A DNA stretch of 57,018 nucleotides, taken from IMG/VR virus record IMGVR_UViG_3300035703_000114; one strand, given 5' to 3'. This DNA comes from a virus. Below, piece after piece: positions 28,584 through 39,901 of the stretch. Positions within the stretch are counted from its first letter, which is position 1. Every line of letters begins with the position of its first letter. The notes beneath the pieces were generated by a model. The model had not been told where the DNA came from and made no database searches. It saw nothing but the letters and a program-made list of their open reading frames with translations. Both the position numbers and the translations under genes were made by a program.

Positions 28584-28847
28584 TCCCGGCTTTTTTGGCC
28601 GCAGTCGGGGTAGGGGGAGTATTGCGCGCAATATCAAACAAACTTTTGGGCGCAATGCCTAGCCGAATAGAGCGATTCGAATAACCTCGCGGGTCCTGAG
28701 GCCGGGAGGGACCCAGGTTTGTGTCAAGATATCAACCGCAAATAGGATTGCAGGCTATTCTTTATAGTTTGCAGATCCTGGCAATTAATATCTTAAATAA
28801 ATCAGGGGCAGCGAACCCGCCGCCCCTGATGCAATCCGCCCGCCCTC

Positions 28848-28862
28848 GCTGATGCAAACCCG
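28848..28862. repeat. Left copy of the 15-bp inverted repeat GCTGATGCAAACCCG bordering the GC-rich cassette
   Basis: Exact reverse complement of 32472..32486. A degenerate direct copy (ctgatgcaatccgcc) lies at 28826..28840. Confidence 0.9.
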
Positions 28863-28930
28863 CGCGCAGTCTCGCCCGCTCAGCACAAGCAACCCCCGCC
28901 CAAGTAATGGGCGAGGGTGACAGCGCGCAG

Positions 28931-28965
28931 ACAATAAAAGGCCCCCGCCCGGTAAGGGCGAGGGC
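28931..28965 (-). terminator. Rho-independent terminator of the GC-rich cassette
   Basis: Minus strand reads GCCCTCGCCC-ttacc-GGGCGGGGGC followed by CTTTTATTGT, 22 nt after the stop at 28987. Confidence 0.75.
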
Positions 28966-28986: not shown

Positions 28987-30156
28987 TCACCAGGTCAGGC
29001 GGGCGGTGCCATCGGCCAGGGGTTGCGCATCAGGGATAGCGGCCAGGTGGAACGGGGCAGCCTCAGGCCCTGCCCCTCGGCTCACTTTGCTGCGCAAGAT
29101 CACGGCCACACCCTGAGGATCCGCCCACCTGTGATCGGACAGGTCGCCGTTAACGCAAGGCACGGTCACAGCCGGCCCGTGATCCGGGGCGAGGGTGAGG
29201 GCCACCGGCAGCGGCTGCCCCTTGCGCAGGGCCACCGGTACGGCCAGGCGGAACCCTGCCCTCACAGCAGCGGCAGCATCAGCAACGGCCGAGGCCCGAT
29301 CAGCAGCCAGGCTGGCTGTCACGTCAAACCCAGCCTCAGCCTGAGCCCACAGGCCGAGGGGGCCTGACAGCGGCGCCTTGCTGTATTCATACAGTTTGAG
29401 GCTCCCATCAGCGCGCGCAACCCCGAGGGCCTCAGCCAGGGTGACAGCCCCGGGGCTGATGGCCAGGCCAAACCGACGCGCGATCGCGACAGCATCAGCC
29501 ACCGGCAGCGACAGCCTCAGGCGGTGCCACCCGCAAGCCGGCCCCTCATCAGTGCCGCGCAGCCTGACAGCGAGGGGCAGCCCCTCGGCCTGCGCGCGGG
29601 CCCATTGGCGGGCGATCGCCCATACCATCGCGCGCCCGTAGAGGGCGGGGCCGGCGATCATCGCCAGGGTGCGGCGCCCCCGGGCGGCAGCAACGGCAGG
29701 CGACAGGCCGCCATGGCCCGCCCAATTTAGGCATCCGGCAGCACAGCCGGTGGTAGCCCAGGGGCAGCCGTTATGGGCGATCGCCTGCGGGATCATCCTC
29801 TCCCGGGCGGCGAGGGCGGCCAGGTCGGCCAGGTGACTGCGGGGGGCGGTGCTGCCCCTGTGGCCGGGTGTGACGGCAGCGGCCAGGGCGCGCGCGGGCA
29901 GGTGGTGGAGAATGACGGCCCGGGCCTGGGCGCTGCCCTTGCCAAGCTTCGGGTTGCTGTCAGTCAACAGATCAGCGAGGCCGAGGCCGAACCTGGCCAG
30001 GTGGGCGGCAACCTCAGCCGGCAGCCGTACGGGCGCGCAACGGGTGGCCTGGGCGGTGGTGGTGGTGATCACGGGGATAACAGGTAACAGGTAACGGGGC
30101 CGGGTGAGGGCCACAGGGTACCCACCCCGGGCAGGGGCAGGGCGCCGGGTGGCCAT
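28987..30156 (-). CDS. Cassette protein 5 (389 aa from the coupled ATG, or 361 aa from GTG 30072); Cys-cluster protein of unknown function
   Basis: Only long ORF in this stretch whose product reads like a natural protein. TGATG overlap with the upstream gene. Motifs SNPKLGKG and NGCPWATTGCAAGCLNWAGHGG, vaguely GP88-like from memory (unverified). Confidence 0.7.
   Translation of the reverse strand: MATRRPAPARGGYPVALTRPRYLLPVIPVITTTTAQATRCAPVRLPAEVAAHLARFGLGLADLLTDSNPKLGKGSAQARAVILHHLPARALAAAVTPGHRGSTAPRSHLADLAALAARERMIPQAIAHNGCPWATTGCAAGCLNWAGHGGLSPAVAAARGRRTLAMIAGPALYGRAMVWAIARQWARAQAEGLPLAVRLRGTDEGPACGWHRLRLSLPVADAVAIARRFGLAISPGAVTLAEALGVARADGSLKLYEYSKAPLSGPLGLWAQAEAGFDVTASLAADRASAVADAAAAVRAGFRLAVPVALRKGQPLPVALTLAPDHGPAVTVPCVNGDLSDHRWADPQGVAVILRSKVSRGAGPEAAPFHLAAIPDAQPLADGTARLTW
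30078..30094 (-). repeat. Leader-motif copy TTACCTGTTACCTGTTA (upstream of GTG 30072, or inside cassette gene 5)
   Basis: Minus strand reads ccccgTTACCTGTTACCTGTTAtccccGTGatc. Same motif as at 31186..31199 and 31404..31424. Confidence 0.85.
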
Positions 30157-30407
30157 CAGCGGCGGGGCGCCCACCTGCCGTCAGCGGTTTGGCGCTGGAG
30201 GTTGCCCACGTGGGCACCGCCCAGGGTGCCGGGGCCGTCGGGGTGGTGATCCCAACGGATACGGGCCAGGTCATGGCCGCCACCCCAGAGGGCCACCACC
30301 ACACCCCGGGCCTGTGGGAGCCAGCCGGTAACCGCCCCCATCTGCTGACAGAAGGTGGAGCTATAACGCACCCGATCGCCGGGCTGAATTCTGTGCAGCC
30401 GTTCCAT
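30156..30407 (-). CDS. Cassette protein 4 (83 aa), unknown
   Basis: TGATG overlaps at both ends. Sequence MERLHRIQPGDRVRYSS...VVVALWGGGHDLARIRWD suggests a small beta (SH3-like) fold. Confidence 0.65.
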   Translation of the reverse strand: MERLHRIQPGDRVRYSSTFCQQMGAVTGWLPQARGVVVALWGGGHDLARIRWDHHPDGPGTLGGAHVGNLQRQTADGRWAPRR

Positions 30408-31183
30408 CAGGCCACCCCCTGGGCGCGCAGGCTGGCGATGGTGGCAGGACAGCCACCCAGAGCTTCCATCGCATCAGCCACACCCCGGAGCGAGGGCTCA
30501 GCCCCGCACACGTCACGATGCCGGGCGGCGATCGCGCGGGCCTCAGCAGTCAGCAGCCACCCGGCAGCCTCAGCACAGGCCAAGGCGTGGGCGGGGCTGT
30601 AGGTATCGGGCAGGGTGAAAAGGGCCTCGCCCAAGACACCCCGAACCTCTACCCCGTACCGCATCAGGGCAAACCCAGCAACCACAGGGCGCGCGCCCCT
30701 CTCCTGCCCGGTGGCAATCCTGGCCAGCATCAGCGGTAGGGCCAGGGCCTCGGCATCAGCACCGGCAGCACAGGCCGCCACTAGCTCCCGGCATGCGGCC
30801 AGGGCCTGGATTGCCTGGGCGCCATGGGCCAGGGCCTCGCCCTCGCTGGGGGTCAGGGCCGTTACGTATGCATAGGACTCACCCCCATCAAGTGAGCCCA
30901 CTGCGGGCAGGGCGCGCCATGGCAGGCCCTGCCGTGTCAGAAGGGCAGCGGCTGCCGCGTCCGGGCCATCGGCGGCAGGCACGGCCAGGCGGGCGGCCCT
31001 GTCGCGAGGACTGCGCTTAAGGGTGGCAACCCATTGGCCCCGGCCTTGGGAATCACAGCCGTAGCGCACAACGACAGCCGCGCGGGAGCTCACTACGGGG
31101 CCGTGGGCAACATCAGTGGCCACCCTGTCACACCCGAGGGCAGCGAGGGCGGCGGGATCGTAGGGGTGGGAGGGGTTTTGCAT
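30407..31183 (-). CDS. Cassette protein 3 (258 aa), unknown
   Basis: Start taken at ATG 31183 (MQNPSHPYDPAAL...), which leaves a 35-nt gap after gene 2 holding the leader motif. Ala-rich helical C-terminal half. Confidence 0.65.
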   Translation of the reverse strand: MQNPSHPYDPAALAALGCDRVATDVAHGPVVSSRAAVVVRYGCDSQGRGQWVATLKRSPRDRAARLAVPAADGPDAAAAALLTRQGLPWRALPAVGSLDGGESYAYVTALTPSEGEALAHGAQAIQALAACRELVAACAAGADAEALALPLMLARIATGQERGARPVVAGFALMRYGVEVRGVLGEALFTLPDTYSPAHALACAEAAGWLLTAEARAIAARHRDVCGAEPSLRGVADAMEALGGCPATIASLRAQGVA

Positions 31184-31185
31184 GG

Positions 31186-31199
31186 CAGTTAACAGGTAA
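31186..31199 (-). repeat. Leader-motif copy TTACCTGTTAACTG, 2 nt upstream of the cassette gene 3 ATG
   Basis: Minus strand reads ccccTTACCTGTTAACTGccATGcaa. Confidence 0.85.
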
Positions 31200-31218
31200 G
31201 GGGTTACGGGTGTGAGGC

Positions 31219-31401
31219 TCAGGCGGGCAGCGCGCGCAGGGTGGCGGCGGGGTCGATCCGCTGCCACAGGGCCACCAGGCGGGCAGCATCAGCGGCAGCG
31301 CGCGGGCGGCCTGCGGGTTGCCACCCGGCTGCCATGCCCCGGTAGCGGGCGACCTGGGCGAGGGCGGGGGCAGCGGGGCGGGTGAAAAGGCGGGTGATCA
31401 T
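31219..31401 (-). CDS. Cassette protein 2 (60 aa), unknown
   Basis: Start taken at ATG 31401 (MITRLFTRPAAPALAQVARYRG...), directly after the leader motif. Confidence 0.5.
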   Translation of the reverse strand: MITRLFTRPAAPALAQVARYRGMAAGWQPAGRPRAAADAARLVALWQRIDPAATLRALPA

Positions 31402-31403
31402 GG

Positions 31404-31424
31404 CAGGTAACAGGTAACAGGTAA
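31404..31424 (-). repeat. Leader-motif copy TTACCTGTTACCTGTTACCTG, 2 nt upstream of the cassette gene 2 ATG
   Basis: Minus strand reads cccTTTACCTGTTACCTGTTACCTGccATGatc. Confidence 0.85.
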
Positions 31425-31437
31425 AGGGCACCCTGCG

Positions 31438-31470
31438 GGCGCCCACCCACTATGGGGCCAGGTGGGCGCC
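31438..31470 (-). other. Perfect 10-bp stem-loop between cassette genes 1 and 2
   Basis: GGCGCCCACC (31438..31447) pairs with GGTGGGCGCC (31461..31470) around a 13-nt loop. No T-tract follows, so it is more likely an RNA processing, stability or attenuation element than a terminator. Confidence 0.6.
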
Positions 31471-31504
31471 ATACCCCAGGGCGAGGGTGCGGGTTGCGCA
31501 ATTG

Positions 31505-32314
31505 TCACACCCCCACGGCCTCACCCCGGCACAGCCTGAGCGCCCGATCCTGGGCGGCCGTCACAGGTGGCAGGGCAGCCAGGGCGGCAGCGGCTGCCGC
31601 AATTGCGCCCAGGGGCAGGGCGGCCAGGGCCTCCCCATAGGTGCGCTCCCCTGCCATCACAGGGCCATCAGGCCACCAGGCCGGGGGCAGGTCAAACCCA
31701 GCACCCCGCACAGCCTGGGCGATAGGCCACAGGGTGGCCACCCTCTCACCCTGCAGGGCAACCCGGGCGCTGGCGTCAGGGGTGCCGGGATCCCACGGTT
31801 GCAAACCGGCAAACCCACCACCAGCAAACCGGGGGGGCAGCTCAGGGGCGTCCGACAGCGCGCGGGCCAGGCTGGCCAGGCTCACCCGGCGCCCGGCTGC
31901 CGCATCAGCGCACAGGGCAGCCACGGACTCGCGATCCTCACCCGGCAGCACAACAGGGGCAGGCTCAGCCACCCGGGCAGCCACCGGCTCAGGCTCACCC
32001 GGCAGCACAGGGCGGCGCGGGGCTGGGGGGTAGCAGTCAGGGGGCAGGGCCTCGCTGAGGCTCTCAGTCTCGGGGTTAAAGGTGGCAAAACCCAGCCGGT
32101 CGACAGCCTCAGGCTCAGCCACCACCGGGGCAGGCTCAGCCTGGGCGGCCTGAGCCTCCCGGGCCAGCTCCCGCAGGCGGCCAAGGTTCACGTATTGACC
32201 GCCCACCAGATAACAGAGGGTGCGACAGCGCCCGCGCGCGGGGCTCTTAGCAGCGTTCACGCCAGCAGCGCGCAGGATCGCGAGGGCCTCATCGGCAGGA
32301 ATCAGGGTCGACAT
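31505..32314 (-). CDS. Cassette protein 1 (269 aa), unknown; N-terminus possibly DNA-binding
   Basis: Start taken at ATG 32314 (MSTLIPADEALAILRAAGVNAAKSP...YLVGGQYVNLGRLRELA), downstream of the cassette promoter. Pro/Ala/Glu-rich linker followed by a C-terminal domain. Confidence 0.65.
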   Translation of the reverse strand: MSTLIPADEALAILRAAGVNAAKSPARGRCRTLCYLVGGQYVNLGRLRELAREAQAAQAEPAPVVAEPEAVDRLGFATFNPETESLSEALPPDCYPPAPRRPVLPGEPEPVAARVAEPAPVVLPGEDRESVAALCADAAAGRRVSLASLARALSDAPELPPRFAGGGFAGLQPWDPGTPDASARVALQGERVATLWPIAQAVRGAGFDLPPAWWPDGPVMAGERTYGEALAALPLGAIAAAAAALAALPPVTAAQDRALRLCRGEAVGV

Positions 32315-32339
32315 AAGAGATAAGCGATAACGCCACCCA

Positions 32340-32368
32340 TATATAGGCGGCCGCCCGCCACCCGTCAA
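32340..32368 (-). promoter_or_regulatory. Near-consensus sigma70-type promoter of the GC-rich cassette (TTGACG-17-TATATA)
   Basis: Minus strand reads ctgTTGACGggtggcgggcggccgccTATATAtgggtggcGTTATCGCTTAtctcttATG. Confidence 0.7.
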
Positions 32369-32471
32369 CAGATCACAGGGCGAGGGTGCCACCGGCTCAC
32401 CCGGCCGGGTTGCTCCTGGCACAGCCACCCGGGCCACCCTGCGCACAGGTCAACCCATCAGCGGGCGGCCT

Positions 32472-32486
32472 CGGGTTTGCATCAGC
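32472..32486. repeat. Right copy of the 15-bp inverted repeat (CGGGTTTGCATCAGC)
   Basis: Exact reverse complement of 28848..28862. Confidence 0.9.
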
Positions 32487-32708
32487 AACCCCGCCGCGCG
32501 ATCGCATCAGCAACCCGCACGCAGTTAGCAATGCAAACCCGCACGGGGTAGCGGTCGCTAACTCACCTCGAGTTGCAGTCGCGAACACCTCGCGCGTTTG
32601 CGTTTAAAACACCCCGCGCGTTCGTGTCACCGAACCGCGCAGTCGCATTGTCGATGTCACTAACTCACCGCGAGTTCGTGACACCGGCCGCTGCATTGGC
32701 GATTGCAT

Positions 32709-32722
32709 GCTGATGCAAACCG
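32709..32722. repeat. Third copy (GCTGATGCAAACCG, same orientation as the left copy)
   Basis: 13/13 identity with GCTGATGCAAACC. Together with 32472..32486 it forms a second inverted pair about 220 bp apart. A further partial copy (aatgcaaacccgcacgg) starts near 32530. Confidence 0.8.
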
Positions 32723-32750
32723 TGTGGCCTTATATATAAAGAATAGGGGG

Positions 32751-32808
32751 CGTGTGCGCGCGCGGCGGCGCTCGGCGGCGCGGCGGCCGGCGGCGCGGCG
32801 GCGGGGCG
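32751..32808. repeat. Almost pure G/C simple-sequence tract (CGG/GCG-type microsatellite)
   Basis: cgtgtgcgcgcgcggcggcgctcggcggcgcggcggccggcggcgcggcggcggggcg, flanked on both sides by AT-rich DNA (tatatataaag / ttaaacttaaatgcatttttt). Confidence 0.85.
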
Positions 32809-32905
32809 TAGGCGGGCATGCAGGCTTAAACTTAAATGCATTTTTTCCTATATAAAAACCGACCCTCCAGAGTTCCTAAAACTTTTTGGGACCGGCATAA
32901 CGCAT

Positions 32906-32929
32906 AAAAAACCGACCCCTCGCGAGTCC
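32906..32929 (-). terminator. Possible terminator right after the 89-aa gene; one of two copies of a GGGTCGGTTTTT element
   Basis: Minus strand reads TAG-GGACTCGCGAGGGGTCGGTTTTTTATG (short stem with a G-U pair, then T6). A sister copy GGAACTCTGGAGGGTCGGTTTTTATA lies at 32854..32876. Confidence 0.4.
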
Positions 32930-33199
32930 CTACCCCTCCCCGTCGTAAGCCGCCTCAATCCATCTCCCGCAGCAATCGCAACACATGCACTCGCCCTCCC
33001 AATTCGCCTCAAGCCGCACCACACACCACCCGTCGCGACCGTCGGTGAGCGCAATCCACTCCCGCTCTTCTTCCGCGCAAAGCCGACAAATCACACTGCC
33101 GTCATCCATTACCGCATACAAGGGGTAACCACCAGGCCATGCCCATGGCTCACGCACGAGCTGATCAGCCAGCCTGAGCGACTTCGATCCGGTACTCAT
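32930..33199 (-). CDS. Small Cys-rich protein (89 aa)
   Basis: ATGA overlap with the upstream gene. Motifs GGYPLYAVMDDGSVICRLC and ECMCCDCCGRWIE. Confidence 0.7.
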   Translation of the reverse strand: MSTGSKSLRLADQLVREPWAWPGGYPLYAVMDDGSVICRLCAEEEREWIALTDGRDGWCVVRLEANWEGECMCCDCCGRWIEAAYDGEG

Positions 33200-33615
33200 T
33201 CCGCGTCCTTCCTGCCGCGTGCATCAAGTTTCCAGCCGTAGTCAAGATGTGTAAGCACCTGACGTAACGCAACCTCAGGCGTCACCTGAATACGACCCTC
33301 AACGCGGTTGCGCATCGTGGAGCGGCTGCCACCAGTGCCGTACATCGAAATCACGCGATCACGGTCTGGAATCCACATGCACCACTCATCGCCATCGCGC
33401 AGAGTGACGGGGGCACCAGCTTTCAAGATCTCAACTGGCGCCACCTCGGAGCGGTCGCAGTAAGACCAGCGGTCCTTGGCCACTATCTCGCCGCAGCGCT
33501 CGCAGCCAAGTGCGCTCCAGCAGAAGTGCGTGACGCGGCTAACGCCTTGGCAATAAGGGCAGCGGATGAAAGCTCCCGCCCTGGGAGCACGAGTGTGTCT
33601 TGTGATCAGTTTCAT
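33196..33615 (-). CDS. Zinc-ribbon protein (139 aa), unknown
   Basis: CPYCQG...x16...CERCG at the N-terminus. Same operon as the ligase-like and RlpA-like genes. Confidence 0.7.
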   Translation of the reverse strand: MKLITRHTRAPRAGAFIRCPYCQGVSRVTHFCWSALGCERCGEIVAKDRWSYCDRSEVAPVEILKAGAPVTLRDGDEWCMWIPDRDRVISMYGTGGSRSTMRNRVEGRIQVTPEVALRQVLTHLDYGWKLDARGRKDAE

Positions 33616-33653: not shown

Positions 33654-33980
33654 TCAATATGAGATATCCACTGTCGCAATGCCGTCTAACGGCACTCCAA
33701 GCGCTGCAGCAGCACCAGCGGACAGGTCAATCGAGTTGCAGTCGCACCTGTCCCTGATTGGCACCACCAGCACGCGACCTCGGTGACGCACCGTGACCCG
33801 CGTGCCACAAGGCAGCCATGGATGCGCGGCTGACACATCCCAGTGGCGGTAGGTGCCACCGCAATACGCCACACGCCCGTGATACCAGCCGTCGTACACC
33901 GTCGCGGTCACCGGCCGCGCATCACCAGCCCCTGGCCACAGCACCAGCGCTGCAGCCAGTGAATGCAAAAACCGCCGCAT
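33654..33980 (-). CDS. Secreted RlpA-like double-psi beta-barrel (DPBB) protein (108 aa)
   Basis: From ATG 33980 (TGATG overlap with the ligase-like stop): signal-like MRRFLHSLAAALVLWPGAGDA, then TATVYDGWYHGRVAYCGG...AAHPWLPCGTRVTVRHRGRVLVVPIRDRCDCNSIDLSAGAAAALG, which follows the RlpA/expansin DPBB pattern. Confidence 0.7.
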   Translation of the reverse strand: MRRFLHSLAAALVLWPGAGDARPVTATVYDGWYHGRVAYCGGTYRHWDVSAAHPWLPCGTRVTVRHRGRVLVVPIRDRCDCNSIDLSAGAAAALGVPLDGIATVDISY

Positions 33981-34702
33981 CACTTCACCGCCAGCGCCCA
34001 ACGCGGCGCCTTAGAGGACTCACCCATCTGGAACTGCACGTCGCGGTCGATCACCTTCGCCACCACGCCATCAGTCGGCCACGGACGATCCCACAGCTTC
34101 CCAGTCCTCCACAGCGCATGCACCTTCTGCACCTCCTCCAGCCGCGTGCAAAGCAGCGAATCCACGCAGTCGAAACCCAGGTCGCCAAGCCAAGCCATCG
34201 CATCGACCTCTGTGCGCTCCTGGAAGGCGCCTCCGAACGCCGCGTAGGCCAACCCACTCGAAACCGCCTTACCGCGCCTCAGAGCCGCTGCTGGCGTGCT
34301 CTGGCGGCCATCAAGTCCCCACAGCTCGCCGCGCACCTCGAACTCATCCGTCACGACCACCTGCGCAGGCACCACCGAACGCACCACCTCGGTGCAATCG
34401 ATTCCGCTACGGGTCCACGCAGCAGCAAGCCGACCACCCACATACCGCAGCGCCACACTCGCGCCATCCACCTTCGGCTGCACCACAACCGCACAACCAG
34501 GCCACCACTCCTCCAGCGGCCCGTTATCGAGCGACAGCAGCGCACGACCACCACCAGGCACCAGCAGCTCCGGTGCATGTGGCGCAACAGCACGCAGCTC
34601 CTCGACCAGCGCATCGAACGCTGCATCGGTCATCACGGGCATCCCAGCCCTGTAAGCGGCATCGGCGCGACGCACCTCAGCCCTAAGCGAAGAAACGGAC
34701 AT
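33980..34702 (-). CDS. NAD+-dependent DNA ligase-like protein with domain Ia plus nucleotidyltransferase domain only (240 aa)
   Basis: LRAEVRRADAAYRAGMPVMTDAAFDALVEELRAV (LigA Ia-type), KVDG (KxDG adenylation motif), and an ending ...SKAPRWALAVK (LigA PRWA-x-A-x-K motif). No OB, Zn-finger, HhH or BRCT region follows. Confidence 0.75.
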   Translation of the reverse strand: MSVSSLRAEVRRADAAYRAGMPVMTDAAFDALVEELRAVAPHAPELLVPGGGRALLSLDNGPLEEWWPGCAVVVQPKVDGASVALRYVGGRLAAAWTRSGIDCTEVVRSVVPAQVVVTDEFEVRGELWGLDGRQSTPAAALRRGKAVSSGLAYAAFGGAFQERTEVDAMAWLGDLGFDCVDSLLCTRLEEVQKVHALWRTGKLWDRPWPTDGVVAKVIDRDVQFQMGESSKAPRWALAVK

Positions 34703-34758: not shown

Positions 34759-35490
34759 TCAGCCCAGCGCGCGCTGCAGCGCTTTCGACAGCAACGACGG
34801 CAGCAGCTCTTCCGACTTCCGCTGCACCGTCCCCGCAAAGTCAAACACCGCAGGCACTGTCGGGTGCTTACGCGCATACCCAAACAGCAACTGCAGGTCG
34901 TTCGACTTCGCGCGGTAGATGCCCGGCTTCAGGTTTCCACCGCCACGACGCGCAGGTTTCCGCTGATCTGGCACGGAGAAATACCGCCAGCTCGCACCTC
35001 GCTTCCCACCACTGCGGCCGTTCTCAGCCTTTAACCCAGCAAGCACCTGCTGGTACTGACCGGGCGTCATGTTCCCGTAGGCGTTCTTTCGCACCCCACG
35101 ACCCTGCAGGTACGGGATTGCGTAATAGCTCGCATCCACCACGCCCATGCCCCTCACCGCCCTGGTGAAGCGCGTGATGTACGCAGGCTTGCCGCCACCG
35201 CCATCCTCGGTGCTGACTGGGTACAGGTAGCGCGCAGGATCCTGACCCTTGGCGCCATCGGTCGAGATCCGGACGGTAAGGGTGAGGCCATCAACGGCGT
35301 AACGCGGTGATCGAAGCGTGAACGGCACCGGGTTGTCGAACACGTCCGCCATGTACTGCGCCAGCTCGCCGCGCATCTTGAAGCCCAGCTCCTTCAGCGC
35401 CTGGTTACCGGCATACGGGAGCTGAACCTTCTGCAGCACGTTGAGCTGCCCGATAAGGCGCTCGGCGTCGAATTCGATGGAGCGGGCCAT
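34759..35490 (-). CDS. Hypothetical protein (243 aa), basic C-terminal half
   Basis: Clean ORF with a 9-nt gap to the upstream gene. I could not assign a family, though the N-terminus is faintly like HK97-gp10-type virion proteins. Confidence 0.7.
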   Translation of the reverse strand: MARSIEFDAERLIGQLNVLQKVQLPYAGNQALKELGFKMRGELAQYMADVFDNPVPFTLRSPRYAVDGLTLTVRISTDGAKGQDPARYLYPVSTEDGGGGKPAYITRFTRAVRGMGVVDASYYAIPYLQGRGVRKNAYGNMTPGQYQQVLAGLKAENGRSGGKRGASWRYFSVPDQRKPARRGGGNLKPGIYRAKSNDLQLLFGYARKHPTVPAVFDFAGTVQRKSEELLPSLLSKALQRALG

Positions 35491-36429: not shown

Positions 36430-39099
36430 TCAGTCCAGATGTGCCAACGGAATCAGGGTAGCCCTGGAAGTCTTCGATCCGGCGAATCTGATCGCCTCGG
36501 AGCTGGCCGAAGCGCCGAGAACCCGCTTCAGCGCTTGCTTATGGGCTCCTCCACTCCATGGCGTTTCGCGTAACAAACCGTTCAGGTTGGTATTCGCATT
36601 AGCAATCGCAAGTTGAGACTCATGAATCTTGATCCCGTAGCGACCGAGGATGCGGTCGGCATCGTCTAAGCAGTCTTCGATGCGTCCAAACCTGGGACCG
36701 CGCGATGCTTCGATGAGCTCTAGTACAGACATACGCCTTCCGCCTGTTATCGGAATTAAGCATTCGAGGATGAAGCCCAGGCATTTGTCCTCATCAGCCC
36801 CGCGTTCTGTAGTCGCGCGGTTGGCCCAGTCCATCTGATCGACCCATTTGTTCGCGGTCTCTTGGGCGATCACAGAGCCGCCCTGAGGCTGCAGCGAATA
36901 AGCCCCCGCGAGCAGCGTCCCGTGTTGATCGCCGAAACGTTGCCCGTAATTACGAGCAAGCGCGCTGGCGAAGACCCGAGAGTTCTCGCGGATAGCCGGA
37001 ATGCGCTGGAGCGTGCGAGCGATCAGTGCGCGACCGTTCTCGATGGTGCAGTGCTGAGCGAGGGCGGCCTCGAGGCTGCGCCAATGGTCTGCAGGGGCCT
37101 CTGAGGCGTTACGAAGGGACAGGATGCAGAAGCGGTCCTGATCGGCGCCTTGAACGAGGGCGACGTTAATTGAAGACACGCAGAACATGGAGCGGATCTC
37201 GTAGCTGTTGCATCCGCCACCGGCTGTGCCCTTGATGACCTTGCCGCCCTCTGAGGATGCGATGCGGGCAAGGGCTAGGACGTTCTGGACGTTTTGCTTG
37301 TCGCGTTGCTCGTTCTGCTCAAATTCGTCGAAGACGACGGGGATGGCATCAGAGCGCAGGGTGCCGCGCAGGCCGGCTTCAGTGGTGCCACCAGTAGCGG
37401 CTTGGTACACGCCGCCGAGGAGTGGTCGCATGAACGAGCGCAGGATAGTGGTCTTACCGCAGCCCTTGCCGCCGGTGATCCAAATATGAGGGCGCCAGTC
37501 GAGCGCCCCGCAGACGGGTGCGAGGGCGATCCAACCCATGAGCAGAGCAGCGGAGGTGTCGTGCTCCCAGGAGAAGGTTTTGGCAATTTTGTAAATCGCA
37601 GCAGCAGCTTGGTCAGATAGCGGCTCGTCGCTTGGACCATCGAGCGGTTTGGCGTGCTCGTAGCTGTAGTAGGAGCTGATGCCGCCAACGACAGGGCATT
37701 CTTTGTTGTCGACGATAAGGCGCATGCCTAGATGGAAGATGACGCGATTGGCATCGACCCAGGCACCCCGACCACGAATGCGGTCGTGGTCGTAAACGCC
37801 TTTCTTTTGCGATTCGACAACCATCCACTCAACAGCCGAATCCCAGTCAACGCCTTCTTTGTTAGGAAAGTTTGATTCCCAGAAGTATTTGCCACCGAGC
37901 GTGATGAGGTGGAGCTTGGTGTGCGATGAAGTTGGCAGGGAGATGACTTGCGCAGTTCCATTTGGCATATAGAAGAAGGTGCCGTGGTCGTAACCGAGGA
38001 ACTGAAAAGGCAGCAGGACATGGTGATCGTCACTGGGCTGAGCTTGCTCTTCGCTCAGCGCTTGCTGACAGTCTTCAGGTAGTTGATATCCGTTCTGGAG
38101 CGCGACTTCAATAAGGCGCCGTATTGATGCGCGCCATTTTGTGTCTTGAATAGTTGGAATCTTTTTATCTGGCTCCCAAAAGCCTTCCGAGTACCAGGAT
38201 GCGGCGTCGCAGATTTCGGCAGCAGTTTTTTGTCCGAAGTGGTGAGTGATGCCGGCGAGGATTGCGAAGCAGGTGAGGTAAAGACCAGCGCCGTCTTCTT
38301 CGCGAAGTGGCGCATAGTCCCTGAGCATTTCCACAGCCAGTTCCTGCTGGCGCGAGCGGGGGAGCTTGGCGAACCAGTGGTGGCTGGGTTTTGCGGGTGC
38401 GTCAGATGCGCGTGTGATGAGCGATGGTGCGCAGGCTTGAATTTCTTCTGATGTGAAAGTTTCTTGCGACTGACTATGAATAACTGAGTATTGACCTGTT
38501 TTTGGGTGCTTGGCGCCAGGTATTCGCATCACCCGGCTTGGGTTGTTGATGCCTTTATCGGGCTTGGCATCTGGCGCAACGATTTCGATTGCGTTAGCGA
38601 GTCTGGTTTGCAGATCGCGAAATAAGCCGAGTGAGATTTCCTGGCCTGGTGTAAAGAGCCAGTAGTGGTGAAGCGACTTGCCGCCGGTCCAGACGGTGAG
38701 GCTTGGTTCTGGGAGACCTGCAAGCTGGGGGAGGACTTCCTGCTCTTCGATTGTTAGGCCACCATCGCATTCAGCCCATACGGCAATGGCTTCTTCGATG
38801 TGAGCATTAGATGCACCCCAAGCTTTCACGTAGCCCTTCGAGTTGAGGTGCTCGGGTTTTTCGCCCCAGTTGCGCGGCCGCTCCGAGGGTGGGTTGATTA
38901 CTAGGCCAAGGCTATGTGTTGGTTTCTCGCGGAGATATTTTTCTATTTCACGACGCGGAATTGCATCAGCTTCGCATTCAAAATGGCGGCAGGGTTTGGA
39001 TGGATCTGGAGGGTAGACGGCGAAGACAAGGGGGCCAGATGAGCGGCCGATTGCTTCCAGGAACTCGTCAACGGCATCCCAATTAACGATGGCACTCAT
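36430..39099 (-). CDS. Primase-polymerase (AEP) / SF3 helicase fusion protein (889 aa)
   Basis: The N-terminal region looks like a prim-pol domain (LVFAVYPPD..., GLVINPP, ...RVMRIPGAKHPKTG). The C-terminal half has Walker A ITGGKGCGKTT and Walker B PVVFDEFE, typical of D5/P4-type helicases. Confidence 0.85.
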   Translation of the reverse strand: MSAIVNWDAVDEFLEAIGRSSGPLVFAVYPPDPSKPCRHFECEADAIPRREIEKYLREKPTHSLGLVINPPSERPRNWGEKPEHLNSKGYVKAWGASNAHIEEAIAVWAECDGGLTIEEQEVLPQLAGLPEPSLTVWTGGKSLHHYWLFTPGQEISLGLFRDLQTRLANAIEIVAPDAKPDKGINNPSRVMRIPGAKHPKTGQYSVIHSQSQETFTSEEIQACAPSLITRASDAPAKPSHHWFAKLPRSRQQELAVEMLRDYAPLREEDGAGLYLTCFAILAGITHHFGQKTAAEICDAASWYSEGFWEPDKKIPTIQDTKWRASIRRLIEVALQNGYQLPEDCQQALSEEQAQPSDDHHVLLPFQFLGYDHGTFFYMPNGTAQVISLPTSSHTKLHLITLGGKYFWESNFPNKEGVDWDSAVEWMVVESQKKGVYDHDRIRGRGAWVDANRVIFHLGMRLIVDNKECPVVGGISSYYSYEHAKPLDGPSDEPLSDQAAAAIYKIAKTFSWEHDTSAALLMGWIALAPVCGALDWRPHIWITGGKGCGKTTILRSFMRPLLGGVYQAATGGTTEAGLRGTLRSDAIPVVFDEFEQNEQRDKQNVQNVLALARIASSEGGKVIKGTAGGGCNSYEIRSMFCVSSINVALVQGADQDRFCILSLRNASEAPADHWRSLEAALAQHCTIENGRALIARTLQRIPAIRENSRVFASALARNYGQRFGDQHGTLLAGAYSLQPQGGSVIAQETANKWVDQMDWANRATTERGADEDKCLGFILECLIPITGGRRMSVLELIEASRGPRFGRIEDCLDDADRILGRYGIKIHESQLAIANANTNLNGLLRETPWSGGAHKQALKRVLGASASSEAIRFAGSKTSRATLIPLAHLD

Positions 39100-39274: not shown

Positions 39275-39315
39275 TGCCTTGACAGGCTAGCGGATCCTGC
39301 TATGGTGTCAAGGCA
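39275..39315. promoter_or_regulatory. Divergent promoter/operator switch: perfect 10-bp inverted repeat TGCCTTGACA-N21-TGTCAAGGCA
   Basis: Each arm contains a TTGACA -35. Rightward promoter is TTGACA-16-TATGGT. Leftward promoter is TTGACA-16-TAGCCT. The two promoters interdigitate in the 41-bp gap between the two transcription arms. Confidence 0.65.
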
Positions 39316-39901
39316 GAACCGTTTTTTTGTCGTGAAGCTTCCTGTCTCTACATCTTGGGATAGTCTTGACTGCCCTTTGTGCAGCGCAAATTATCTGCAT
39401 CATGTAGCTCTTACGTATTATTCCCGCATGGAGGACGCCAAAAGAGGTGAATGCGTGCTTTTAGATAGTTCTTGTGCTGACAATGATGAGCCTCAATTCC
39501 TTTGCTCTCATGTATCAAATGCAGCTATGACTCACTGCCCTAGTCCCAGAAGAGACGGCATGAGCATACACTTTAGGTGCGAAAATTGCGAAAGCAAACC
39601 AAAACTTTTGATTTACCAGCATAAAGGTCAAACTTTTATTGAATGGGATAAAACCACTGTTGTCGAATCTTCGCTTGAAGAACGACAATTTAAGCGCGAA
39701 CCAATCAGGCCAAGTGTTCGTTTTCAAGTTCTAAAACGCGACGGTTATGCTTGCCAAATATGTGGAGCAACTGCTGCAGATGGTGCAAAACTCGAAATTG
39801 ATCACATCTTCCCAGTAGGCAGAGGCGGGCAAAATGACGAAGAAAATTTACAGGTTTTGTGCCGCAATTGCAATATCGGAAAATCGGATAGTTTTCAATG
39901 A
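39302..39901 (+). CDS. HNH endonuclease with an N-terminal Cys-rich domain
   Basis: C-terminus RFQVLKRDGYACQICG...LEIDHIFPVGRGGQNDEENLQVLCRNCNIGK is a classic HNH motif. N-terminal CPLC...CENC. The true start is probably GTG 39332, because ATG 39302 lies inside the predicted -10. Confidence 0.8.
   Translation: MVSRQNRFFVVKLPVSTSWDSLDCPLCSANYLHHVALTYYSRMEDAKRGECVLLDSSCADNDEPQFLCSHVSNAAMTHCPSPRRDGMSIHFRCENCESKPKLLIYQHKGQTFIEWDKTTVVESSLEERQFKREPIRPSVRFQVLKRDGYACQICGATAADGAKLEIDHIFPVGRGGQNDEENLQVLCRNCNIGKSDSFQ

What the first reader, a model, noticed from the sequence alone, without database searches (positions are those of the whole stretch)
33654..34702. LigA-like protein reduced to Ia + adenylation domain, translationally coupled to a secreted RlpA-like DPBB protein
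The 240-aa product has the NAD-ligase Ia-type N-terminus, the KVDG adenylation lysine motif and the PRWALAVK motif, and it stops exactly there. It lacks the OB fold, Zn finger, HhH and BRCT domains that a nick-sealing LigA needs. Its stop overlaps (TGATG) the start of a signal-peptide-bearing RlpA/expansin-like double-psi beta-barrel protein. Two Cys-rich proteins follow in the same operon. A stand-alone NAD+-using nucleotidyltransferase in a phage could be an AMP-transferase acting on a non-DNA substrate. It could be a minimal ligase working with a partner. It could also be an NAD+-metabolising counter-defence factor. The pairing with an envelope-targeted DPBB protein is unusual.
Basis: partly seen in the sequence, partly recalled or inferred. 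Interest (0 to 1): 0.65.

Follow-up and report, generated by a model that had tools for sequence, protein, structure and literature searches.

The report
Phage LigA reduced to adenylation core
An uncultured phage lineage keeps a NAD+-dependent DNA-ligase gene cut down to its cofactor-binding and catalytic core, with no DNA-clamping domains anywhere in the genome, so it probably works with a partner protein or on something other than a DNA nick.

Summary
A 240-aa minus-strand gene (33980-34702) encodes only LigA domain Ia plus the nucleotidyltransferase (NTase) domain and stops at the motif V lysine. Its TGA overlaps the ATG of a signal-peptide-bearing RlpA-like DPBB protein, and two Cys-rich genes follow.

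It is not a frameshift artefact. The 33 best-scoring 50%-identity clusters are all short. All 44 surveyed loci carry the short gene (two look damaged). The motif I, III, IV and V residues and the Ia NMN-binding residues are invariant.

No LigA OB, Zn-finger, HhH or BRCT sequence was found in the window or in any of the 44 loci. The same search readily found subunit B in T5-type split-ligase loci. So this is neither canonical LigA nor the known heterodimeric phage ligase.

The DPBB pairing is incidental. It occurs only in the closest relatives, is absent from an 89%-identical one, and the overlap is unique to this window.

The only constant neighbour is an uncharacterised, very basic ~245-aa protein upstream. 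That protein also exists in phages without the ligase, so a functional link is only suggested.

Best guess: the catalytic subunit of a non-canonical NAD+-dependent DNA-joining enzyme. A non-ligase AMP-transferase or NAD+-linked role is not excluded.

This is a new variant of a known kind and moderately interesting.

The parts
33980..34702 (-). lig-aden: 240-aa LigA-family protein with domain Ia plus the NTase domain only. The stop codon is at 33980-33982.
   Evidence: PF01653 at 63 bits. PDB alignments end at motif V. The AF2 model matches LigA adenylation domains at E 2e-17. Family alignment.
34568..34702 (-). Domain Ia (about aa 1-45, two helices), the NMN-binding module that confers NAD+ specificity.
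   Evidence: AF2 helices 3-18 and 26-39. Y17, D26 and D30 are invariant and F/Y29 is conserved. These align with E. coli Y22, D32, D36 and Y35. Several relatives carry the precomputed PF22745 Nlig-Ia domain.
34463..34474 (-). Motif I, K77-V-D-G, containing the predicted AMP-accepting lysine.
   Evidence: Aligns with E. coli K115/D117/G118 and is invariant in 18 of 18 family members. I verified the codons by hand on the sequence.
34322..34333 (-). Motif III, R-G-E126-L.
   Evidence: E126 aligns with E. coli E173 and is invariant. Codons read.
34055..34072 (-). Motif IV, D211-G-V-V-A-K216.
   Evidence: D, G and V are invariant. K216 aligns with E. coli K290 and is K or R in 17 of 18 members.
33983..34006 (-). 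Motif V, P-R-W-A-L-A-V-K240. The protein ends here.
   Evidence: K240 aligns with E. coli K314 and is invariant. Intact family ORFs (42 of 44 loci) end 0-11 residues after this lysine.
34759..35490 (-). p243: an uncharacterised, very basic 243-aa protein (phrog_1924). It is the only universal neighbour of lig-aden and a candidate partner, unproven.
   Evidence: phrog_1924 at E 2e-35 with no Pfam or NCBIfam hit. Present in 44 of 44 lig-aden loci. pI 10.1 here and 9.7-10.8 in all 44 loci. AF2 pLDDT 85 with no PDB fold match.
33654..33980 (-). Secreted RlpA-like DPBB protein (108 aa from its ATG). It is a lineage-specific accessory gene and shares one base with the lig-aden stop (TGATG).
   Evidence: PF03330 at 54 bits. 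Sub-threshold RlpA hits. Conserved signal-peptide-like N-terminus. Found only in close relatives and absent from L020 and L023.
33196..33615 (-). 139-aa Cys-rich protein with an N-terminal zinc-ribbon-like module. Accessory.
   Evidence: phrog_5602 and phrog_8162 match residues 1-58. Full-length homologues occur only in close relatives. Weak N-terminal matches occur in L046, L051 and L054.
32930..33199 (-). 89-aa Cys-rich acidic protein (phrog_18452, labelled 'DNA ligase' in some records). Accessory.
   Evidence: In Sphingobium phage Lacusarx the homologue is a lone small gene among hypothetical genes. pI 4.25.
32914..32928 (-). Weak terminator-like hairpin followed by a T-run just after the 89-aa gene. 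Possible end of this transcription unit.
   Evidence: This is a consensus match only, and the number of such sites in the region is no higher than in shuffled sequence.

Best explanation
The gene encodes a real, selectively maintained, minimised member of the NAD+-dependent DNA ligase (LigA) family. It consists of only the NMN-binding Ia domain and the nucleotidyltransferase domain.

Step 1 is inferred from conserved residues. Ia closes over NAD+, K77 attacks the adenylate phosphorus, NMN leaves and a lysyl-AMP enzyme forms.

Steps 2 and 3 are inferred more weakly. AMP would be transferred to a DNA 5'-phosphate and the nick sealed. Because the protein has none of LigA's OB, Zn-finger or HhH DNA-clamping domains, the DNA would have to be held by another protein in trans. 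The best candidate is the strongly basic ~245-aa protein encoded immediately upstream. It lies between the primase gene and the packaging genes in this phage lineage.

The likely job is sealing nicks in replicating or recombining phage DNA, or at annealed genome ends, in a phage that has no other ligase gene. The downstream DPBB and Cys-rich genes are unrelated accessory cargo.
For: - Fold and motifs: PF01653, LigA-adenylation PDB matches and the AF2/Foldseek result.
- Selection on catalysis: the residues aligning with E. coli K115, D117, G118, R136, E173, D285 and K314, plus Ia Y22, D32 and D36, are invariant in 18 members that are only 48-91% identical to the window protein. S81 of the LSLDN motif is invariant, and R208 is kept in 15 of 18.
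- Stable architecture: the 33 best 50%-identity clusters are all 316 aa or shorter. The first longer protein (530 aa, NTase+OB+HhH) appears only at E 3e-39. All 44 surveyed loci carry the short gene, and the 42 intact ORFs end 0-11 residues after motif V.
- DNA-metabolism context: the gene lies downstream of the primase/helicase gene and upstream of terS and terL. Relatives have DNA polymerase A, PDDEXK and VRR-NUC nucleases and helicases nearby. No other ligase domain appears in the window.
- Partner candidate: p243 is present in 44 of 44 loci, against at most 27 of 44 for any other gene family. It is usually 8-235 nt upstream on the same strand. It is retained in four loci where the gene order differs. 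It is uniformly very basic.
- Precedents for ligase function split over two polypeptides: the T5 split LigA (PMC1684257), the PR1 phage heterodimeric ligase structures 9hu3 and 9i5i, and the OB fold supplied in trans to editosome RNA ligase L2 (PMC3413154).
Against: - No ligase in the reviewed literature (PMC7470946) seals DNA without an OB domain. That review calls NTase+OB the minimal scaffold.
- The p243 model has no detectable OB, HhH or other DNA-binding fold. It has no PDB match at all. Its weak viral matches lean toward HK97-gp10-like or tail-component proteins.
- p243 is a backbone gene that exists without lig-aden. Examples are L099 (same primase-p243-terS-terL layout), L092, L097, L098, and the cultured phages LESphi3 and phi2LM21. 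The 44 of 44 co-occurrence may therefore only reflect shared ancestry.
- A more distant NTase-only LigA-like gene (L066) has no p243 nearby.
- The stretch aligning with E. coli R200 is deleted, and R277 is not conserved. From memory, these residues contact the nick in LigA.
- No physical or co-folding test of the pair could be run.
Confidence: 0.4

Rival explanations
1. The protein is a repurposed NAD+-dependent enzyme that does not seal DNA. It self-adenylylates and then passes AMP to a different acceptor, such as a protein (p243 included), an RNA or DNA end used as a cap, or a small molecule. Alternatively it serves as an NAD+ sensor or consumer in phage-host conflict over NAD+.
For: - Every domain that gives LigA its grip on nicked duplex DNA is absent from the protein, the window and 44 related loci.
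- Residues needed for NAD+ binding and lysine adenylylation are exactly those that stay invariant. Some aligned DNA-contact positions (R200, R277) are lost.
- Phages are already known to carry solo Nlig-Ia domains proposed to be NAD+ sensors independent of any ligase (PMC9503650).
- The gene sits at the head of a variable, accessory-gene-rich stretch between p243 and terS.
- A distant NTase-only relative sits beside a PAPS-reductase-like gene rather than replication genes.
Against: - Without an acceptor the reaction is single-turnover, so simple NAD+ depletion is implausible.
- No acceptor or effector gene is conserved downstream.
- The gene is stably inherited across a deep lineage next to replication genes, rather than being sporadic like typical counter-defence cargo.
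- S81/LSLDN and R208 remain conserved.
Confidence: 0.25
2. It is an ordinary split LigA. The missing OB/Zn/HhH part is encoded elsewhere in the phage genome in a form too diverged to detect, or is borrowed from a host protein.
For: - Split NAD+ ligases exist in T5-like phages (PMC1684257).
- Most window proteins have no recognisable family, so a very divergent DNA-binding module could be hidden among them.
Against: - A LigA C-terminal HMM, run with --max on six-frame translations, found nothing in the window or in 44 family loci (plus or minus 7 kb). It found subunit B at E 1e-29 to 1e-77 and the OB segment of subunit A in every T5-type locus tested.
- A Pfam scan of 38 window ORFs listed no OB, ZBD, HHH or BRCT family.
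- In known split ligases the break lies after the OB fold, not before it.
- No gene other than p243 is shared by all lineages.
Confidence: 0.1
3. One reading: lig-aden and the secreted DPBB protein form a functional, translationally coupled pair, an envelope-linked NAD+/AMP system.
For: The TGATG overlap occurs in this window. Both genes lie in the same apparent transcription unit.
Against: - DPBB is present only in the closest clade. It is missing from L023 and from the 89%-identical L020.
- It is absent from all distant lineages.
- In relatives that have it, the genes are 27-43 nt apart.
- One protein is cytoplasmic and acidic. The other carries an export signal.
Confidence: 0.03
4. It is an artefact or a decaying remnant: a frameshifted or truncated LigA pseudogene.
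For: Individual relatives do show damage. L020 has frameshifts, and L052 carries a 151-aa truncated copy.
Against: The same end point is kept in dozens of lineages down to 28% identity. Catalytic residues are invariant. The DNA after the stop encodes a different, well-supported gene.
Confidence: 0.02

Closest known systems
Canonical bacterial NAD+-dependent DNA ligase LigA (e.g. E. coli LigA, 671 aa) and its isolated adenylation-domain fragments used for crystallography (e.g. 1b04, 1tae, 1zau, 7k72)
   Same: The Ia + NTase fold is the same. Motifs I, III, IV and V and the Ia NMN-binding residues are shared. The natural protein ends where the crystallographic adenylation-domain constructs end. 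From memory, such fragments self-adenylylate with NAD+ but neither bind nor seal DNA well. I did not check this against a paper here.
   Different: - It is about 75 residues shorter within the same two domains, through several loop and helix deletions including the stretch aligning with E. coli R200.
- It is a natural, conserved stand-alone gene product.
- It has no OB, Zn finger, HhH or BRCT domains.
- It scores 74 bits against a 444-bit LigA equivalog cut-off.
T5-type heterodimeric (split) phage NAD+ ligase (T5 subunits A and B; PR1 phage ligase, PDB 9hu3 and 9i5i; Vibrio phage JSF10 gp095 + gp092)
   Same: It is a phage-encoded LigA-family enzyme in which the catalytic part is a separate polypeptide.
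   Different: - There, subunit A keeps the OB fold (320-339 aa). Subunit B carries Zn finger + HhH + BRCT and is encoded 0.7-1.5 kb away.
- Here the protein stops before the OB fold, and no B-like gene exists in the window or in 44 related loci.
- Sequence identity to JSF10 subunit A is only about 26%.
[quoted passage not shown]
   Same: A ligase NTase module lacking its own OB fold depends on a separately encoded protein to bind the nicked substrate in trans (PMC3413154). This shows that the proposed division of labour is feasible.
   Different: Those are ATP-dependent RNA ligases of eukaryotic mitochondria, and the trans partner has a recognisable OB fold. p243 has no recognisable fold.
Solo Nlig-Ia domain proteins of phages (Iyer et al. 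2022, PMC9503650)
   Same: They are phage-specific dismemberments of the LigA architecture that retain NAD+-binding residues. They are proposed to act independently of ligation.
   Different: Those proteins are the Ia domain alone. This one keeps the complete catalytic NTase domain with the adenylatable lysine. That survey reported NAD+ ligases only in viruses larger than about 68 kb. This lineage is about 50-58 kb.
RlpA-family DPBB lytic transglycosylases (for the downstream neighbour only)
   Same: A DPBB_1 domain above the Pfam threshold, RlpA-like sequence motifs and an export signal.
   Different: It is only 108 aa, with no SPOR domain and no lipobox cysteine. It is below the NCBIfam RlpA cut-offs. 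It is not conserved with lig-aden.

Membership tests
NAD+-dependent DNA ligase LigA (EC 6.5.1.2; TIGR00575) | N-terminal Ia domain with NMN-binding residues (E. coli Y22, D32, Y35, D36) | tested here: met
   Y17, D26 and D30 are invariant and F/Y29 is conserved across 18 family members. H23 is replaced by an invariant R. Relatives carry PF22745.
NAD+-dependent DNA ligase LigA (EC 6.5.1.2; TIGR00575) | NTase domain with motifs I (KxDG), III, IV and V | tested here: met
   PF01653 at 63 bits. K77, D79, G80, R98, E126, D211, G212, V214 and K240 are invariant. Foldseek E 2e-17 to LigA adenylation domains.
NAD+-dependent DNA ligase LigA (EC 6.5.1.2; TIGR00575) | OB-fold domain directly after motif V | tested here: not met
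   The protein ends at K240. No PF03120 hit. The C-terminal HMM finds nothing in the window.
NAD+-dependent DNA ligase LigA (EC 6.5.1.2; TIGR00575) | Zn finger, HhH domain (and usually BRCT) | tested here: not met
   Absent from the protein, from 38 other window ORFs and from the six-frame search.
NAD+-dependent DNA ligase LigA (EC 6.5.1.2; TIGR00575) | Score above the curated equivalog threshold | tested here: not met
   TIGR00575 at 73.8 bits against a cut-off of 444. NF005932 at 68 bits against 369.
NAD+-dependent DNA ligase LigA (EC 6.5.1.2; TIGR00575) | NAD+-dependent self-adenylylation and nick sealing | not testable with these tools
   This needs biochemistry.
T5-type heterodimeric phage NAD+ ligase (PR1 9hu3; T5 subunits A and B) | Subunit A comprising Ia + NTase + OB (about 320-340 aa) | tested here: not met
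   JSF10 gp095 and 9hu3_A extend to LigA residue ~390-399. The window protein ends at the position aligning with residue 314.
T5-type heterodimeric phage NAD+ ligase (PR1 9hu3; T5 subunits A and B) | Separately encoded subunit B (Zn finger + HhH + BRCT) in the same genome | tested here: not met
   The HMM detects subunit B in L062, L064, L065, L067-L070 (E 1e-29 to 1e-77). It finds nothing in the window or in 44 family loci.
Solo Nlig-Ia phage proteins (PMC9503650) | Ia domain alone, without the ligase catalytic module | tested here: not met
   A full NTase domain is present.
RlpA-like DPBB proteins (downstream neighbour) | DPBB_1 domain | tested here: met
   PF03330 at 54 bits against a cut-off of 28.8, covering profile positions 2-82 of 83.
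RlpA-like DPBB proteins (downstream neighbour) | Full RlpA architecture (lipoprotein signal, SPOR domain) and curated RlpA score | tested here: not met
   TIGR00413 at 37 bits against 82. NF007953 at 25 bits against 201. No SPOR hit. No Cys in the signal region.
Lambda gpZ / 'minor tail protein' (the label attached to p243 via phrog_1924) | Recognisable Minor_tail_Z or other tail-protein domain, and a position in the tail module | tested here: not met
   No Pfam or NCBIfam hit. Homologues sit between lysis/regulatory or primase genes and terS, not among tail genes. Only weak (E > 1) structural resemblance to HK97-gp10-like proteins.

The most novel reading that the evidence does not exclude
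The LigA catalytic core has been repurposed in this phage lineage as an NAD+-driven adenylyltransferase whose physiological acceptor is not a DNA nick. Possible acceptors include the basic p243 protein or another protein (AMPylation), or a nucleic-acid end that is capped rather than sealed. Alternatively the core acts as an NAD+-state sensor or counter-measure in NAD+-centred phage-host conflict. That would be a new biochemical role for the ligase NTase fold with an Ia domain.
Probability: 0.2. Interest if true: 0.8.

Novelty: new variant of a known kind. Interest (0 to 1): 0.55.

Why it matters
[quoted passage not shown] For LigA the extra domains are considered integral to the reaction. A deep, selectively maintained phage lineage keeps only Ia + NTase, with no OB, Zn or HhH anywhere in about 57 kb. 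That leaves two possibilities. Either a new way of holding DNA for ligation exists, through a non-OB partner, or the NAD+-dependent lysine-adenylylation chemistry is used for something other than nick sealing.

Either outcome would extend the known repertoire of the covalent nucleotidyltransferase superfamily and of phage NAD+ biology. It would also give a very small NAD+-dependent module for engineering.

The finding also corrects likely misannotations. Family members are labelled 'DNA ligase (NAD+)' in JGI records. The 89-aa family is labelled 'DNA ligase', and p243 is labelled 'minor tail protein Z'.

The claim is directly testable with two small recombinant proteins.

Tried and rejected
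- Frameshift or hidden C-terminus: rejected. Six-frame phmmer with E. coli LigA and the JSF10 subunits, and a six-sequence LigA C-terminal HMM, gave no hit in the window.
- The 89-aa 'DNA ligase' PHROG as a zinc-finger partner: rejected. Its homologues are lone small genes in unrelated phages with no ligase domain nearby, and the family is absent from most lig-aden lineages.
- A conserved small zinc-ribbon gene downstream as partner: rejected. The downstream small ORFs of six lineages share no similarity, and no downstream family exceeds 10 of 44 loci.
- p243 as a disguised OB/HhH protein: not supported. The AF2 model has no PDB match and the profile has no PDB sequence match. The BFVD matches are uncharacterised proteins, with weak tail-component-like hits. 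A profile search of 5.8 billion proteins returned only unnamed proteins without Pfam domains.
- p243 co-occurrence as proof of partnership: weakened. Searching from p243 found related phages with the same backbone but no lig-aden.
- Cultured relatives: none. There was no nucleotide match in 50,697 phage records, and the best protein matches are about 28% identical full-length ligases. A genome collection scan found only two short MAG contigs.
- Literature: no paper describing a natural Ia + NTase-only LigA was found. This holds only for the open-access library searched.
- A final script to recheck motif coordinates and look for terminal redundancy failed because the script machine was lost. 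I verified the motif coordinates by hand instead. Terminal redundancy was not checked.
Full report
**1. What is in the window**

The finding's coordinates (33654-34702) span two minus-strand genes.

- The upstream gene (33980-34702, ATG, 240 aa) matches Pfam DNA_ligase_aden (63 bits, cut-off 27), with the match running to its last residue. It also matches PHROG families of NAD-dependent ligases.
- phmmer against PDB aligns it with LigA adenylation-domain constructs. The alignments end at ...SKAPRWALAVK240, opposite the M. tuberculosis ...APRWAIAYK that closes the NTase domain.
- An AF2 model built on 25 family sequences (pLDDT 86) gives two N-terminal helices (Ia) and an alpha/beta NTase core. 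It matches LigA adenylation domains at Foldseek E about 2e-17.
- The stop codon shares one base with the ATG of the next gene (…GTG AAG TGA TG CGG…).
- That next gene encodes a 108-aa protein with a DPBB_1 domain (54 bits). It has an MRR + hydrophobic + A-D-A|RP N-terminus that is conserved in its homologues.
- A 139-aa (7 Cys) gene and an 89-aa (8 Cys) gene follow.

**2. It is a family, not an accident**

- A search of 5.8 billion proteins returned many close and distant homologues. All 120 listed hits are 135-279 aa, and most are 217-279 aa.
- A profile search of 1.8 billion 50%-identity representatives put 33 clusters of 316 aa or fewer ahead of the first longer protein. That protein (530 aa, E 3e-39) is an ordinary NTase + OB + HhH ligase.
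- I examined 44 genomic loci: the window, 37 IMG/VR contigs and 6 others. All 44 carry the short gene. In 42 the ORF reaches motif V and ends 0-11 residues after it. L052 is cut to 151 aa, and L056 and L058 match the profile only to position about 231 of 247.
- In an alignment of 18 members that are 48-91% identical to the window protein, the positions aligned with these E. coli LigA residues are invariant: K115, D117, G118 (motif I), R136, E173, D285, G286, V288 and K314.
- Ia residues Y22, D32 and D36 are also invariant, and Y35 is F or Y. K290 is K or R in 17 of 18. S81 (LSLDN) is invariant, and R208 is kept in 15 of 18.
- The stretch containing R200 is deleted, and R277 is not conserved.
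- The protein is about 75 residues shorter than the same two domains of E. coli LigA because of several internal deletions.

This pattern indicates selection for NAD+ binding and lysine adenylylation. What happens to the AMP afterwards cannot be read from the sequence.

**3. There is no missing half**

- A Pfam scan of 38 other window ORFs listed no ligase OB, ZBD, HHH, BRCT, ATP-ligase or RNA-ligase family.
- Six-frame searches of the whole 57 kb found only the NTase gene. I used E. coli LigA, the three JSF10 'ligase' proteins, and an HMM of LigA residues about 317-671 built from six full-length ligases.
- The same HMM served as a positive control. In T5-type split-ligase loci recovered in the same scan (L062, L064, L065, L067-L071) it found the OB segment in subunit A. 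It also found a separate Zn-HhH-BRCT subunit B 0.7-1.5 kb downstream, at E 1e-29 to 1e-77, in all of these except the contig-truncated L071.
- In the 44 NTase-only loci it found nothing.
- The known heterodimeric phage ligase breaks after the OB fold. PR1 (PDB 9hu3, 9i5i) has subunit A of 339 aa reaching LigA residue ~390-399. Its subunit B of 248 aa covers residues 400-668 (T5 precedent in PMC1684257).

The present protein is thus neither canonical LigA nor a member of that split type. It also scores far below the NCBIfam LigA cut-offs (74 against 444 bits).

**4. Neighbours**

*The DPBB link is not conserved.*
- DPBB homologues occur in 8 loci, all from the closest clade (about 68-70% ligase identity). 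There they begin 27-43 nt after the ligase stop rather than overlapping it.
- L023 lacks DPBB, with the 139-aa homologue directly following the ligase. So does L020, whose ligase is 89% identical.
- More distant lineages carry unrelated small genes downstream. No downstream family is found in more than 10 of 44 loci.
- Full-length homologues of the two Cys-rich genes are similarly restricted, apart from a few weak partial matches.
- The 89-aa protein belongs to a PHROG labelled 'DNA ligase'. Its homologues in Lacusarx, rV5-like and phiCbK-like phages are isolated small genes, so the label looks like a propagated misannotation.

*The one constant neighbour is the 243-aa protein upstream (34759-35490).*
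- It is present in 44 of 44 loci. In most it lies 8-235 nt upstream on the same strand. In four loci it lies elsewhere within a few kb.
- It has no Pfam, NCBIfam or PDB relative. The confident AF2 model (pLDDT 85) has no PDB fold match.
- It is uniformly very basic (pI 9.7-10.8), whereas lig-aden here is acidic (pI 5.4).

*This protein is not specific to lig-aden phages.*
- Homologues sit just upstream of terS in the cultured phages LESphi3 and phi2LM21.
- Searching from p243 recovered contigs with the same primase-p243-terS-terL-connector backbone but no lig-aden (L099; also L092, L097, L098).
- All 19 informative loci with closer p243 homologues had lig-aden directly downstream.
- A more remote NTase-only LigA-like gene (L066) has no p243 and lies beside a PAPS-reductase-like gene.

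So p243 is a backbone gene of this phage group. lig-aden is a long-retained gene sitting right after it, at the head of a variable region. A functional partnership is plausible (basic protein, tight spacing) but not demonstrated.

**5. Genome context**

- The window looks like a lytic phage of an uncultured host. It has no nucleotide match among 50,697 phage records. Only two short MAG contigs turned up in 185,579 genomes.
- On the minus strand the order is: primase/helicase (36430-39099), a 211-aa ORF, p243, lig-aden, DPBB, the 139-aa gene, the 89-aa gene, a 480-nt repeat-rich spacer, genes of 313, 286, 83 and 395 aa, two strong terminators, terS, terL, connector, portal.
- Relatives carry DNA polymerase A, PDDEXK and VRR-NUC nucleases and helicases nearby.
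- The context is therefore the boundary between DNA metabolism and packaging.

**6. Mechanism**

*Shown by sequence and structure comparison:* an intact Ia + NTase module with the adenylatable lysine.

*Inferred:* NAD+-dependent formation of lysyl-AMP.

*Inferred more weakly:* transfer to a DNA 5'-phosphate and sealing, with DNA binding supplied in trans. Precedents for divided ligases exist (T5 and PR1; editosome L2 with the A1 OB fold, PMC3413154). No reviewed ligase works without an OB domain, though (PMC7470946). I give this reading 0.4.

The main rival (0.25) is that the module no longer seals DNA. It would instead transfer AMP to another acceptor or act in NAD+ sensing or conflict, by analogy with the solo Nlig-Ia proteins of phages (PMC9503650). 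An undetected canonical partner (0.1), a DPBB-coupled system (0.03) and a pseudogene (0.02) are poorly supported.

**7. Novelty and verdict**

- The survey of viral NAD+ systems read here reports NAD+ ligases only in viruses larger than about 68 kb. It describes solo Ia domains but not a natural Ia + NTase-only form.
- I found no paper describing one, within the limits of the open-access library.
- I class it as a new variant of a known kind: clearly LigA-derived, but failing the OB, Zn and HhH membership criteria and distinct from the known split ligase.
- Interest is moderate (0.55). It is a clean, testable anomaly for ligase enzymology and phage NAD+ biology, but the function is unresolved.

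Noticed in passing
window 32447-32929: The 480-nt non-coding spacer after the 89-aa gene holds direct repeats at roughly 24-nt spacing. An example is GTCGCTAACTCACCTCGAGTT at 32554, 32578 and 32656. It also holds a perfect 14-nt inverted repeat, GGTTTGCATCAGCA, at 32474 and 32708. The pattern is iteron-like and could be an origin or a regulator-binding array.
   Followed up: partly
window 28987-32446 (extending more weakly to ~35500): There is a sharp compositional island of about 72% GC, against about 55% for the rest of the window. It covers the 395-aa (GP88-like), 83-aa, 286-aa and 313-aa genes. The lig-aden region is at 61-64% GC. This suggests mosaic origin or Ala/Gly/Pro-rich proteins.
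   Followed up: no
window 34759-35490; L016 4965-5708; L017 4986-5732; L099 7989-8753: The phrog_1924 family (labelled 'minor tail protein' or 'minor tail protein Z') is a uniformly basic ~245-aa protein. It is typically encoded just upstream of terS or after the primase gene, not in tail modules. It has no Pfam or PDB relative, so the tail label looks unsupported.
   Followed up: partly
window 32930-33199; L009 4010-4315: The 89-aa Cys-rich acidic protein belongs to phrog_18452. It is annotated 'DNA ligase' in RefSeq records of Lacusarx, rV5-like, phiCbK-like and other phages. It has no ligase domain and stands alone among hypothetical genes, so this is probably a propagated misannotation.
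   Followed up: partly
L066 6770-7525 (IMGVR_UViG_3300014204_000331): This is a second, more distant NTase-only LigA-like gene (251 aa, PF01653 at 75 bits, ending 3 residues after motif V). It lies in a 41-kb viral contig with no p243 homologue, and a PAPS-reductase-like gene starts about 360 nt downstream. The architecture may have arisen more than once.
   Followed up: partly
L052 6995-7450; L020 899-1612: Some family members look damaged. L052 has a 151-aa truncated copy. L020, a MAG contig, has frameshifts splitting the gene into three ORFs. These could be assembly errors or occasional decay.
   Followed up: no
window 39302-39901 and other ORFs between 39 and 57 kb: An HNH endonuclease gene sits directly upstream of the helicase gene. 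The window also encodes dCTP-deaminase-like, dNMP-kinase, VRR-NUC, RNase T-like exonuclease and DUF3799 PDDEXK proteins. No DNA polymerase was detected among the 38 ORFs scanned, whereas some relatives have DNA polymerase A.
   Followed up: no
window 28801-28965 (minus strand): Two strong terminator-like hairpins lie between the GP88-like gene and terS. One has 10 pairs (9 GC) and the other 13 pairs (9 GC), each followed by a T-run. They mark a probable transcription boundary before the packaging genes.
   Followed up: no
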